Of a DNA stretch of 64,000 nucleotides, positions 33,596 through 35,068 are shown piece after piece. The notes beneath the pieces are model-generated. The model saw only the letters and a program-made list of their open reading frames with translations. It did no database searches and was not told where the DNA came from. The stretch covers positions 6,421 to 70,420 of the forward strand of contig CANPYX010000004.1 of assembly GCA_947588955.1 (NCBI GenBank). The letters are read 5' to 3'. The stretch's first letter is position 1. Each line of letters starts with the position of its first letter. The position numbers and the translations under genes are program-made. Source of the DNA: an uncultured Oscillospiraceae bacterium (GTDB taxonomy: Bacteria; Bacillota; Clostridia; Oscillospirales; Oscillospiraceae).

Positions 33596-33973
33596 ATGAA
33601 GGACAGAATCCCTACTTATCCCAACCGGGTGCGGCTTGTGCCGGTGCCGGGAAGGGACGGGTATTATGACGTGGAGCGCGCGGACGAGCCGACCCAGGAG
33701 GGGACGAAGCTCAACAAGGCGACGCTCCTCACCGATGAGACGGCGGCGGCTGTGAAGGCGGCGCGTCCGGGCTTTTCGGGGGAGGTGGACACCGTCAACG
33801 ATGCTCTGGCGGCACTGGCGCTGGGAGGCGTGAGCGCGGGGGCGTCGGAGCCCGGTGACAAGTCCGGGCTGTGGGTGGACACCTCCAACGGCGCCGGCAA
33901 GGGCGTGCTGAAATATTACGACACGGCGCTGGGCAAGTGGACGCCGGTGTGGTCGGTCTGGGGGGTAAAGTGA
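33596..33973 (+). CDS. short tail fibre-like protein
   Basis: N-terminus IPTYPNRVRLVPVPGRDGYYDVERADEPTQEGTKLNKATLL is typical of Firmicutes phage fibre N-termini. Confidence 0.6.
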   Translation: MKDRIPTYPNRVRLVPVPGRDGYYDVERADEPTQEGTKLNKATLLTDETAAAVKAARPGFSGEVDTVNDALAALALGGVSAGASEPGDKSGLWVDTSNGAGKGVLKYYDTALGKWTPVWSVWGVK

Positions 33974-33974
33974 G

Positions 33975-34973
33975 ATGGCGGAGAGCTACAACACCTTTTC
34001 CCCGGACCGCGTCAGAGCCCTGAAGGACGCCGCCAGAGCGGAGGTAAAGCGCAGGAAGGGGTACGGTTCGCTCTCCGAGGACACGGGCTACGGCTACGCC
34101 CAGAGGGGCAAGACGGTGGACTACTCCTCGGAGAAGTTCGAATTCGACGTTCAGCCCGCCCCGGGGGAGGGGATAACCGTGGACCACGGGGAGAAGACCG
34201 TGGACATACTGCTGAAAATAGCGGAGCACGGGGATCTCACCCATGCCGCAGCAGGAGAGCCCATCCCCTCGGACTTCACCGAGGAGCTTATAACCTATGT
34301 CAACACCCTGGCGGGGGAGAGCATGACGGGGACGGTCACCAGCTGCCACGGGGCATGTACGGGGCTGTGCGTGGGCACCTGCTCCGACGGGTGCTCCGGC
34401 TGCACGGGGTCGGGCGCGTCGAACACCGGAGGATACGGCTGCAACGGGTGCTCCGCCGCCTGCGGTAACTCCTGCGGCACAAGCTGCGGGGAGGGCTGCA
34501 GCGGGAAATGCAACTGGACCTGTGAGATTCAATGCTCCGTAGACTGCTCGGGCTATTGTCATCAGACATGCAAGTCGGGGTGTATCGGCGATTGTCGATA
34601 CGAATGCGGCGGAACCGAGAAGGGTACGCCGTCAAACTGCAGCAACTCCTGTCAGACGGCCTGCTATTACACCTGCGCCATTGACTGCCAGGGCAACTGC
34701 CGGACGGGGTGCGCGAGCTGCGACTACGGCTGTGACGGCTTCTGCTGGGGCGCTTGTATGGGCGGCTGCCTCAACGGGTGCGGCGAGTGCGAGGGCTGCG
34801 CGGGGTGCTCCGGGTGCGGCGGAGGCTGCTCCGGGCGCTGTTACGGCGGCTGCGACACCGCCTGTCTGGGGTGCTCGGGGAATTGCGAGGGCAGGTGCCT
34901 CAATTCCTGCTTCTCCACCTGCTCCGACACCTGCTACGGCAGCTGCAATGGCACGGCGGACACCGTACAGTGA
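33975..34973 (+). CDS. CXXX-repeat hyper-cysteine protein 2 (putative radical SAM target)
   Basis: Paralog of 28901..29989. Same N-domain (GYGSLS..DTGY, HGEKTV..LLKIAEHG, LITYVNTLAGESMTGT.TSCHGACTGLC). 49 Cys (my count), mostly CxxxC. ATG 2 nt after the fibre stop. Confidence 0.8.
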   Translation: MAESYNTFSPDRVRALKDAARAEVKRRKGYGSLSEDTGYGYAQRGKTVDYSSEKFEFDVQPAPGEGITVDHGEKTVDILLKIAEHGDLTHAAAGEPIPSDFTEELITYVNTLAGESMTGTVTSCHGACTGLCVGTCSDGCSGCTGSGASNTGGYGCNGCSAACGNSCGTSCGEGCSGKCNWTCEIQCSVDCSGYCHQTCKSGCIGDCRYECGGTEKGTPSNCSNSCQTACYYTCAIDCQGNCRTGCASCDYGCDGFCWGACMGGCLNGCGECEGCAGCSGCGGGCSGRCYGGCDTACLGCSGNCEGRCLNSCFSTCSDTCYGSCNGTADTVQ

Positions 34974-35068
34974 CGCGGGATACCCCCCCACCCCTTTCGG
35001 ATACGCCGGAAGGGAAGGACATTTTCGGGGGAATGTCTTAAAAAATCGGAAAATATTTTTTCGGGAAG

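What the first reader, a model, noticed from the sequence alone, without database searches (positions are those of the whole stretch)
33596..34973. Second fibre + CXXX-protein pair, with an 82-bp near-identical DNA block shared between the two Cys genes
A 125-aa fibre-like ORF (33596..33973) is followed 2 nt later by Cys-protein 2, repeating the fibre-then-Cys-protein arrangement at 27241..29989. The two Cys genes share the N-domain architecture. At the DNA level they share an almost identical block, 29204..29285 versus 34290..34371, which encodes LITYVNTLAGESMTGT.TSCHGACTGLC. This block sits exactly at the junction of N-domain and Cys tail. Such a conserved junction could be the maturase recognition element and/or a recombination point for swapping Cys tails.
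Basis: seen in the sequence. Interest (0 to 1): 0.6.

Follow-up and report, generated by a model that had tools for sequence, protein, structure and literature searches.

The report
Conserved start motif of phage cysteine-repeat proteins
A prophage of a gut anaerobe carries a second "short fibre protein plus cysteine-repeat protein" gene pair, and the near-identical 82-base block the two cysteine genes share encodes the most conserved motif of a large, uncharacterised phage protein family that always sits beside a radical SAM cross-linking enzyme.

Summary
orf125 (33596-33973) is followed after one base by Cys2 (33975-34973, 332 aa, 49 Cys). The blocks 29204-29285 and 34290-34371 match at 77/82 bases, against 58% in the preceding 100 codons.

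The DNA identity does not need a DNA-level function. The block is 27/28 identical in protein with dN/dS 0.15, against 0.71 in the flanking N-domain. Synonymous identity is not significantly raised (scan permutation p=0.42).

The core S-C-[R/H]-G-A-C-T-G-L-C is the conservation peak of a family of at least 548 protein clusters at 50% identity. Every family locus whose held DNA reached past the Cys gene (14 distinct arrangements) has a TIGR04115-type radical SAM gene within about 3 kb.

The gene just upstream usually ends in LW[IV]DT...KYY...W...VWG, as orf125 and fibre 1 do. A low-GC phage (L005) repeats the two-pair bracketing of the enzyme. A sister prophage (L002) keeps only the second pair.

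Array length changes and gene splits fall downstream of the block, so it is not the swap point.

Best reading: the block is the fixed start of the Cys array, probably where the enzyme, which lacks a fused recognition domain, engages it. The N-domain probably docks on the fibre's VWG end. The chemistry is untested. An earlier scan report covers Cys1 in this same prophage.

The parts
32844..33506 (+). orf220, the conserved gene preceding orf125 (phrog_18725, function unknown); probable proximal part of the second fibre unit
   Evidence: PHROG hit. Homologs sit directly upstream of orf125 homologs in L002 (97% identity), L024 (43%) and L025 (31%).
33507..33595 (.). Intergenic cassette (17-bp palindrome GTGTCCGATTCGGACAC plus ATACCCCCACC...TTTTGGGGG), one of several copies that punctuate the module
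   Evidence: the repeat finder families D8 and D11. Other copies lie at 27134, 32771 and 34978.
33596..33973 (+). orf125, a short two-module fibre/adaptor protein. N-module is aa 1-~70 (MKDRIPTYPNRV...TVNDAL). C-module is aa ~79-125 (LWVDT..KYYD..W..VWGVK).
   Evidence: N-module family with variable C-termini; P0257 and P0258 end in IWG. (C-module at the end of the gene upstream of Cys genes in 9 other loci).
33975..34286 (+). Cys2 N-domain (aa 1-104), predicted to be a small helical domain and fast-evolving
   Evidence: AF2 with 132 sequences: pLDDT 65.9, helices at 10-26, 69-82 and 103-113. No PDB fold match. Terminal branch length 1.3 against 0.12 for Cys1. dN/dS 0.71.
34290..34371 (+). The 82-bp block, which encodes LITYVNTLAGESMTGTVTSCHGACTGLC
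   Evidence: 77/82 nt identical to 29204-29285. dN 0.033 and dS 0.22.
34338..34370 (+). Family-wide invariant core T-S-C-H-G-A-C-T-G-L-C (aa 122-132), the first CXXX repeats
   Evidence: Information peak of about 4 bits per column in 132 sequences. C124, C128, G130, C132, C136 and C140 are invariant. H125 occurs only in the two window paralogs; 123 of 132 sequences have R.
34372..34793 (+). Variable CXXX/CXX repeat array of Cys2
   Evidence: Spacing counts. Array interiors change by in-frame indels between near-identical phages (L020/L021, L009/L011).
34794..34973 (+). Conserved C-terminal ~60 aa of the array (GC.GCSGCGG..CSG.CYG.C ... C[YF]..CS..C[YFW]G.C.GTAD)
   Evidence: Alignment of C-termini from fused forms and from ORF B of split forms.
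28901..29989 (+). Cys1, the paralog of Cys2; block copy at 29204-29285
   Evidence: Sister to Cys2 in the N-domain tree with weak support (64/80).
27241..28896 (+). Collagen-like fibre 1, which ends in ...TAKAVWG four nt before Cys1. Its 5' end is frameshifted relative to L002.
   Evidence: Pfam Collagen and PHROG tail-fibre hits. C-terminus. Extra A near 27209 relative to L002.
30530..30955 (+). 141-aa companion ORF, translationally coupled to the rSAM gene
   Evidence: Homologs directly upstream of the rSAM in L002, L005, L009-L011 and L015. Similar small ORFs at that position in L018 and L020 were matched by eye only (shared 'W.LDF..G' stretch). No Pfam or NCBIfam match.
30955..32274 (+). 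Radical SAM/SPASM enzyme, TIGR04115 (CXXX-repeat target family)
   Evidence: 463.7 bits against a cut-off of 350. PapB is next at 163.5. The closest solved structure is CteB (5WGG); CteB residues 1-91 have no counterpart here.

Best explanation
Cys2 and Cys1 are paralogs in a large, unnamed family of phage tail-module proteins. Each has four parts: (i) a helical N-domain of about 105 aa, (ii) a nearly invariant start motif E-x-x-[TE]-G-x-x-S-S-C-[R/H]-G-A-C-T-G-L-C-x-G-x-C-x-x-x-C-x-G-C, (iii) a CXXX/CXX array of variable length, and (iv) a conserved C-terminal section of about 60 aa.

The 82-bp block is the coding sequence of part (ii). It looks like a DNA repeat only because strong purifying selection on the protein acts on two copies that still share synonymous history in a genome with high GC3.

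Proposed mechanism, with inferred steps marked. The phage radical SAM/SPASM enzyme (TIGR04115) lacks the fused N-terminal recognition domain seen in CteB. Alone or with its coupled 141-aa companion, it engages the substrate at this fixed start motif. It then works along the array installing Cys-derived thioether cross-links, giving a redox-insensitive stapled rod (inferred from its PapB/SCIFF-maturase relatives).

The N-domain is not a disposable leader. It docks the rod onto the C-terminal LWxDT...VWG module of the protein encoded just upstream: orf125 for Cys2 and fibre 1 for Cys1 (inferred from strict gene adjacency across many phages). On this reading orf220-orf125-Cys2 forms a second, short fibre unit. 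It is the unit retained with the enzyme in the sister prophage.
For: Family and motif:
- 548 representatives at 50% identity with E<=1e-3.
- The motif is the information peak of 132 aligned sequences.

Selection:
- dN/dS is 0.15 in the block and 0.71 in the flank.
- Same-codon fraction is 0.85 in the block and 0.68 in the flank, against a chance level of 0.44. The difference is not significant.
- L005 paralogs keep the motif with dS 1.26.
- The N-domain tree places Cys1 and Cys2 as sisters with a 10-fold branch asymmetry.
- The rare H125 is shared only by these two of 132 sequences.

Enzyme link:
- TIGR04115 at 463.7 bits against a cut-off of 350.
- An rSAM lies within about 3 kb of the Cys gene in L002-L013, L015 and L018-L021.
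- No counterpart of CteB residues 1-91.

Fibre link:
- The upstream gene ends in ...VWG, sometimes with 2-3 further residues, in window fibre 1, orf125, L005 (both pairs), L006, L009-L011, L018 (a 68-aa ORF), L020 and L024.
- The locus always lies between baseplate or tail genes and the holin/lysin genes.
- L025 has the orf125 N-module with a different C-terminus and no Cys gene.

Capped-array architecture:
- Conserved C-terminal section.
- Interior indels between near-identical phages.

Sister prophage:
- L002 lacks Cys1 but keeps the companion, rSAM, orf220, orf125 and Cys2.
Against: - No chemistry, binding or virion data exist.
- The Cys tails do not match NCBIfam's target model TIGR04114.
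- The companion has no detectable RRE/PqqD signature.
- In split systems the long array is a separate ORF B without the N-domain. Only some ORF B N-termini resemble the motif (L020 MACSCGTACKGLC; L009 and L011 do not). A cis start motif therefore cannot be the only recognition route.
- The N-domain model has only moderate confidence (pLDDT 65.9).
- L007_A, L012, L013 and L015 lack a VWG-ended upstream gene.
- The Cys1-Cys2 sister grouping has weak support (64/80).
Confidence: 0.45

Rival explanations
1. Structural cap only. The motif is the N-terminal cap or nucleation site of the Cys-repeat fold, with the conserved C-terminal 60 aa as the other cap. It is conserved for folding or stability and plays no role in enzyme recognition; the rSAM recognises the repeats themselves.
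For: - Both ends of the array are conserved while the interior expands and contracts.
- ORF B of split systems lacks the N-domain and often lacks the motif, yet lies in the same operon.
- PapB-type enzymes tolerate wide core variation (PMC12373016).
Against: - The same paper attributes PapB substrate recognition to leader-RRE docking, so some fixed docking element is expected.
- The motif is far more conserved (about 4 bits per column) than the C-terminal section or any other repeat.
- This reading is not exclusive of the best explanation.
Confidence: 0.25
2. Gene-conversion or recombination tract. The block was homogenised between two older paralogs by a short conversion event, or it serves as a homology patch for exchanging Cys tails. 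Its DNA identity would then be the relevant feature.
For: - NG86 dS is 0.22 in the block and 0.78 in the flank.
- By raw identity, the Cys1 N-domain is closer to P0002, L005_A and L001 (63-70%) than to Cys2 (44%), yet the block is 27/28 identical to Cys2. The next best match is 24/28.
- The rare H125 is shared with the same codon, CAC.
- Genome-mates also share C-terminal endings: GTAD in the window and SGETxG in L005.
Against: - The synonymous-site scan is not significant (p=0.42), and the Fisher test gives p=0.16.
- The ML tree does not reject Cys1+Cys2 as sisters. The identity ranking is explained by the long Cys2 branch.
- L005 paralogs conserve the motif without DNA homogenisation.
- Observed tail variation and gene splits lie downstream of the block.
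- Window Cys2 and L002 Cys2 show no tail swap (both are 332 aa).
Confidence: 0.12
3. The Cys array is a metal-binding, Fe-S-binding or disulfide-rich domain. The neighbouring rSAM acts on another substrate or supplies a different modification, and the motif is a ligand site.
For: - Extreme Cys density (15-17% of the whole protein; 23-25% of the tail) with regular spacing.
- No match to the curated target model TIGR04114.
- No direct evidence of modification.
Against: - The Cys family and the TIGR04115-type rSAM co-occur in all 14 distinct arrangements with enough flanking sequence.
- The enzyme's nearest characterised relatives are Cys-thioether-forming maturases.
- CXXXC spacing with Gly, Ser and Thr fillers is not a known cluster-binding motif (own knowledge).
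- The hosts are strict anaerobes, where disulfides are unlikely (own knowledge).
Confidence: 0.08

Closest known systems
NCBIfam/TIGRFAMs 'CXXX-repeat' system: TIGR04115 (radical SAM peptide maturase, CXXX-repeat target family) with target model TIGR04114
   Same: The rSAM scores 463.7 bits, above the curated cut-off of 350. The adjacent substrates carry long runs of Cys at CXXX spacing.
   Different: The targets here are 332-362-aa proteins with a conserved 105-aa N-domain, placed in a phage tail-fibre module. They do not match the 18-position TIGR04114 target model. I found no experimental paper on the system: full-text searches for 'CXXX repeat' with 'radical SAM' found nothing, and 'TIGR04115' appears in only one paper, on a pig gut microbiome.
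PapB/freyrasin (ranthipeptide) and CteB/SCIFF thioether maturases
   Same: Same enzyme superfamily (rSAM plus SPASM). PapB is the second-best NCBIfam hit, and CteB (5WGG) is the closest solved structure. Both have Cys-rich substrates with repeated short spacings. In PapB a fixed leader docks the substrate and the core can vary (PMC12373016).
   Different: Scores are far below those families' cut-offs (163.5 against 340; 110 against 425). The enzyme has no counterpart of CteB's first 91 residues. The substrate is a large protein rather than a short peptide. There are 49-61 Cys instead of about 6. The context is a phage structural module rather than a RiPP cluster with protease and exporter genes.
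Tail-fibre gene followed by a coupled tip, chaperone or adhesin gene (lambda Stf/Tfa, Mu/P2 Tfa, T4-like gp37/gp38) - comparison from my own knowledge
   Same: A gene immediately downstream of the fibre gene and translationally coupled to it, pairing with a conserved fibre C-terminus. T2-type gp38 adhesins also have a repetitive small-residue (Gly-rich) region.
   Different: No sequence or fold similarity was found (Pfam, PHROGs, Foldseek). A dedicated radical SAM enzyme is unprecedented in those systems.

Membership tests
TIGR04115/TIGR04114 CXXX-repeat rSAM system | The radical SAM/SPASM enzyme scores above the TIGR04115 curated cut-off | tested here: met
   463.7 bits against a cut-off of 350; covers residues 28-395 and profile positions 3-359 of 359.
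TIGR04115/TIGR04114 CXXX-repeat rSAM system | The neighbouring target matches the TIGR04114 repeat model (18 positions, cut-off 20 bits) | tested here: not met
   No NCBIfam hit for Cys1, Cys2 or the L009 ORF B even at E<=10. The whole-genome search found none. However, the model rang in no control genome either, so its sensitivity is unknown.
TIGR04115/TIGR04114 CXXX-repeat rSAM system | The target carries tandem Cys at CXXX spacing next to the enzyme gene | tested here: met
   Cys2: 38 of 48 spacings are CXXXC and 8 are CXXC. Cys1: 34 and 22 of 60. The genes lie 965 nt upstream and 1.7 kb downstream of the rSAM gene.
Ranthipeptide (PapB) / SCIFF (CteB) RiPP systems | The enzyme scores above the family cut-off | tested here: not met
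   PapB 163.5 against 340. SCIFF maturase 110 against 425.
Ranthipeptide (PapB) / SCIFF (CteB) RiPP systems | An N-terminal recognition domain (RRE) fused to the enzyme | tested here: not met
   The alignment to CteB (5WGG) starts at chain residue 92 and query residue 22. Only 27 residues precede the first residue matched by the TIGR04115 model. That CteB's first ~90 residues form its RRE is from my own knowledge.
Ranthipeptide (PapB) / SCIFF (CteB) RiPP systems | A short precursor peptide with a disposable leader | tested here: not met
   The substrates are 332 and 362 aa. The N-domain is conserved across at least 548 clusters and predicted to be helical. Whether it is cleaved off cannot be tested here.
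Ranthipeptide (PapB) / SCIFF (CteB) RiPP systems | Cys-derived thioether cross-links are installed | not testable with these tools
   Requires co-expression and mass spectrometry.
Phage tail-fibre plus downstream tip/chaperone gene pairs | The gene lies immediately downstream of a fibre gene, between tail/baseplate genes and the lysis genes | tested here: met
   Gaps of 1-5 nt in the window, L006, L009-L011, L020 and L024. Flanking Baseplate_J, Mu Gp48, tape-measure, holin and amidase genes.
Phage tail-fibre plus downstream tip/chaperone gene pairs | Sequence or fold similarity to known Tfa or gp38 families | tested here: not met
   No Pfam or NCBIfam hit. The only PHROG hit is phrog_6085 (function unknown). 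Foldseek against the PDB gave nothing, and BFVD gave only an unnamed family member.
Phage tail-fibre plus downstream tip/chaperone gene pairs | The protein is present in the virion or required for fibre assembly | not testable with these tools
   Requires prophage induction and proteomics or cryo-EM.

The most novel reading that the evidence does not exclude
RiPP-type radical SAM chemistry is used by phages on a virion structural protein. A fibre-tip protein docks through its N-domain onto a conserved VWG fibre end. The invariant SC[R/H]GACTGLC start motif feeds its 200-470-residue CXXX array into a phage-encoded maturase that has no fused recognition domain. The product is a thioether-stapled rod whose length evolves by repeat gain and loss. 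Some phages deploy two such units from one enzyme.
Probability: 0.35. Interest if true: 0.85.

Novelty: new variant of a known kind. Interest (0 to 1): 0.6.

Why it matters
If the reading holds, this is a post-translational cross-linking system for virus particle proteins, built from RiPP enzymology. The substrate is a whole protein with dozens of modification sites. No phage structural protein is known to be matured by a radical SAM enzyme, as far as I know and as far as four full-text searches showed.

The invariant start motif gives a small, concrete handle for experiments: peptide binding, point mutants and minimal substrates. The naturally split ORF A forms (140-190 aa, about 11 Cys) are ready-made minimal substrates.

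The VWG-end rule links a fibre module to its partner and could help annotate tail fibres of uncultured gut phages. The family is widespread in gut metagenomes but has no name or described function in the libraries searched here. An unidentified accession, PF27846, is precomputed on some homologs, so a recent Pfam entry may exist.

Tried and rejected
- tblastn of orf125 and of the Cys2 N-domain against 50,697 GenBank phage records found no match.
- Pfam, NCBIfam and PHROGs on orf125 and Cys2 gave only phrog_6085 (function unknown).
- PF27846, precomputed on some homologs, is not in the local Pfam copy and could not be identified.
- I first assumed TIGR04114 was the companion protein. It is the 18-position target model, and it does not match here.
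- AF2 with 14 sequences was poor (pLDDT 53.5). With 132 sequences it reached 65.9. Foldseek against the PDB found nothing, and BFVD found only an unnamed homolog.
- phmmer of Cys2 against PDB sequences gave only a chance Cys-rich toxin hit at E 0.096.
- Gene-conversion reading: the identity ranking suggested phylogenetic incongruence. The ML tree explains it by a long Cys2 branch, and the synonymous scan was not significant.
- A search of 399 scored genomes of the same class found only the window's own genome, plus two borderline hits I take to be spurious.
- Literature searches ('CXXX repeat' with 'radical SAM'; TIGR04115; radical SAM with tail fiber, cysteine-rich and prophage; ranthipeptide with phage) found nothing on this system.
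- Rfam on the insert in the L011 rSAM gene found nothing. The insert is an in-frame protein insertion.
Full report
**1. The observation**

ORF listing and sequence confirm a 125-aa ORF at 33596-33973. Its TGA is followed after one base by the ATG of a 332-aa ORF (33975-34973) with 49 Cys. The first Cys gene most plausibly starts at ATG 28901 (362 aa, 61 Cys).

The blocks 29204-29285 and 34290-34371 agree at 77/82 positions. The repeat finder extends this to 116 nt at 84%, the longest repeat shared by the two Cys genes. The 100 aligned codons before the block are only 58% identical, so the block is far beyond chance (binomial 3.6e-13).

**2. Neighbourhood**

The region is the tail-to-lysis end of a prophage. 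In order it holds:
- tape measure, a tail protein (phrog_13879), and collagen-like fibre 1;
- Cys1, a small cassette, and a 141-aa ORF;
- a radical SAM/SPASM enzyme;
- orf101, orf220, orf125 and Cys2;
- a holin-like ORF and an amidase endolysin.

The enzyme is a clear TIGR04115 member ('radical SAM peptide maturase, CXXX-repeat target family'; 463.7 bits against a cut-off of 350). PapB (163.5) and the SCIFF maturase (110) score far below their own cut-offs. Its closest solved relative is CteB (5WGG). The alignment starts at CteB residue 92, and that N-terminal part of CteB is its RRE domain (own knowledge). The phage enzyme therefore has no fused N-terminal recognition domain.

**3. DNA feature or protein feature?**

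I aligned the genes by codon.
- At positions with identical, degenerate amino acids, the same codon is used in 22/26 cases in the block and 30/44 in the preceding N-domain (Fisher p=0.16).
- The chance expectation from the prophage's own codon usage is 0.44.
- A permutation scan for any 26-codon window with at least 22 identical codons gives p=0.42.
- Nei-Gojobori estimates are dN 0.033 and dS 0.22 in the block, and dN 0.56 and dS 0.78 before it.

The block is therefore distinguished by a very low dN (dN/dS 0.15 against 0.71). Its lower dS is suggestive but not robust.

In the low-GC phage L005 the two paralogs conserve the same motif (23/27 aa). Their synonymous sites are saturated there (11/23 same codons, dS 1.26). 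DNA near-identity is thus not a property of the system. Protein conservation is.

**4. The family**

A first word-based search found only two relatives. Pattern scans then recovered 11 viral contigs, 2 metagenome contigs and a sister prophage in an Oscillospiraceae MAG. An exhaustive profile search with a 14-sequence N-domain+junction alignment found 548 representatives at 50% identity (E<=1e-3), of which 310 had E<=1e-10.

In a 132-sequence alignment, C124, C128, G130, C132, C136 and C140 are invariant. The information content peaks at residues 123-132, SC[R/H]GACTGLC, at about 4 bits per column.

The family is rare in reference genomes. Of 399 scored genomes of the class, only the window's own genome matched, apart from two borderline hits. 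It is absent from GenBank phage records.

**5. Architecture**

Full-length members also share a conserved C-terminal section of about 60 aa.

Between near-identical phages the array interior changes by in-frame indels while both ends stay fixed:
- L020 and L021 have identical ORF A, and ORF B is 184 against 150 aa.
- L009 and L011 share 145/152 residues in ORF A, and ORF B is 154 against 207 aa.

In L009, L010, L011 and L020/L021 the gene is naturally split. ORF A holds the N-domain, the motif and about 11 Cys, and ends ...CG[ST]GCA[SG]G.M... It is followed by a stop, a Shine-Dalgarno sequence, an ATG, and a pure Cys-repeat ORF B. L018 also has a short ORF A, but its pure Cys-repeat ORF lies after the rSAM gene rather than directly downstream. 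Many database members are such short forms.

The split point is about 45 residues downstream of the block. Neither splits nor length changes use the block as a joint.

**6. The pairing with a fibre**

The gene just upstream of a Cys gene ends in a shared module, [LI]W[IV]D[TS]..G...KY[YH]....W..V..[AS]VWG. The cases are:
- window fibre 1 (...AKAVWG*) and orf125 (...SVWGVK*);
- L005 fibre A (...ASVWG*) and fibre B (...SSWGADS*);
- L006, L009, L010 (with collagen repeats) and L011;
- L018 (a 68-aa ORF), L020 (two copies of the module) and L024.

Exceptions are L007_A and L013, which have another C-terminal domain, and L012 and L015.

The N-terminal ~70 aa of orf125 belong to a separate module found on small tail-region proteins with varied C-termini. 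In L025 that N-module carries a different C-terminus and no Cys gene follows. The VWG module, not the N-module, therefore tracks the Cys gene.

orf220 homologs precede orf125 homologs in L002, L024 and L025.

L005 repeats the window's full layout: fibre A, Cys A, companion, rSAM, fibre B, Cys B.

The sister prophage L002 (rSAM 96% identical, Cys2 94%) has a different distal fibre 1. It has no Cys1 and no orf101, but it keeps the companion, rSAM, orf220, orf125 and Cys2. The 'second' pair is therefore the one stably associated with the enzyme in this lineage.

**7. History of the two paralogs**

By raw identity, the Cys1 N-domain is closer to P0002, L005_A and L001 (63-70%) than to Cys2 (44%). 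The block, in contrast, is 27/28 identical to Cys2. H125 occurs only in these two of 132 sequences. This looked like a conversion tract.

However, the ML tree of the pre-block N-domain places Cys1 and Cys2 as sisters (support 64/80). The terminal branches are 0.12 for Cys1 and 1.3 for Cys2. The simpler history is a duplication in this lineage followed by fast divergence of the Cys2 N-domain, perhaps adapting to orf125. The motif stayed frozen by selection. An old short conversion cannot be excluded.

**8. Mechanism**

What is shown:
- strict co-occurrence of the family with a TIGR04115-type rSAM in every locus with enough flanking sequence;
- a fixed start motif;
- an array capped at both ends;
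- adjacency to VWG-ended fibre genes.

What is inferred:
- the enzyme, alone or with its conserved coupled companion, engages the start motif and cross-links the array through Cys thioethers, as its PapB and CteB relatives do;
- the N-domain docks on the VWG module.

What weakens the inference:
- there is no match to the TIGR04114 target model;
- the companion has no RRE signature;
- ORF B arrays lack the N-domain, and only some of them resemble the motif.

The N-domain model is helical with moderate confidence (pLDDT 65.9) and has no known fold relative.

**9. Verdict**

The DNA-level and tail-swap ideas are not supported.

An earlier report of this scan covers Cys1 in the same prophage. The new points here are:
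- the family-wide motif;
- the capped-array and split-gene architecture;
- the VWG partner rule;
- the recurrence of the two-pair layout;
- the primacy of the second pair.

Noticed in passing
L011:11773-14112 (and L012, same position): The TIGR04115-type rSAM is 779 aa, with an in-frame insert of about 330 aa inside the SPASM 'NWCGGxGAM' motif. The insert begins CWGAGTPVLT, carries LAGLIDADG-like blocks (LVGRYIGDGW, LEGYISSDGY) and ends ...VSSN before CGG. This looks like an intein with a homing endonuclease. L012 is split at the same residue (aa 283-292).
   Followed up: partly
L014:35-1798, L015:718-1830, L001:324-1340: These Cys-protein genes contain several in-frame TAG codons (6 in L014, 4 in L015, all TAG), both in the N-domain and between repeats. 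The database called P0001 'with_TAG=Q'. These phages probably read TAG as an amino acid.
   Followed up: partly
window 27044-27050 and ~27209: Relative to the sister prophage L002, the window is one base shorter in a short divergent stretch near the 3' end of the tail gene, and has an extra A after codon 4 of fibre 1 (L002 reads MATVPYTSEEFIEIMLAAYARWN). The tail ORF therefore reads through to 27353, and fibre 1 loses its native start. This is either an assembly error or real decay of the first fibre unit.
   Followed up: partly
L002:4289-7092 versus window 28400-30530: In the sister prophage, the distal part of fibre 1 plus Cys1 is replaced by a different fibre C-terminus and two ORFs (301 and 166 aa). 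orf101 (window 32461-32766) is absent there. The swaps are bounded by the repeated intergenic cassettes.
   Followed up: partly
window 27134-27185, 32771-32822, 33528-33579, 34978-34997: A reiterated intergenic cassette (palindrome GTGTCCGAATCGGACAC plus an ATACCCCCACC...TTTTGGGG hairpin) precedes fibre 1, orf220 and orf125 and follows Cys2. Its function is unknown; it may be a terminator or a module boundary.
   Followed up: no
L007:17755-20184: Besides two tandem Cys genes, this phage has a second, distant rSAM (22% identity) followed by a third, divergent hyper-Cys protein (361 aa, 81 Cys, CDxxC/CxC-rich) that lacks the junction motif.
   Followed up: no
L020:6480-7049 versus L021:5906-6373: Two prophages with identical ORF A differ by a 34-residue in-frame deletion inside the ORF B Cys array. 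This is direct evidence of rapid change in repeat number.
   Followed up: yes
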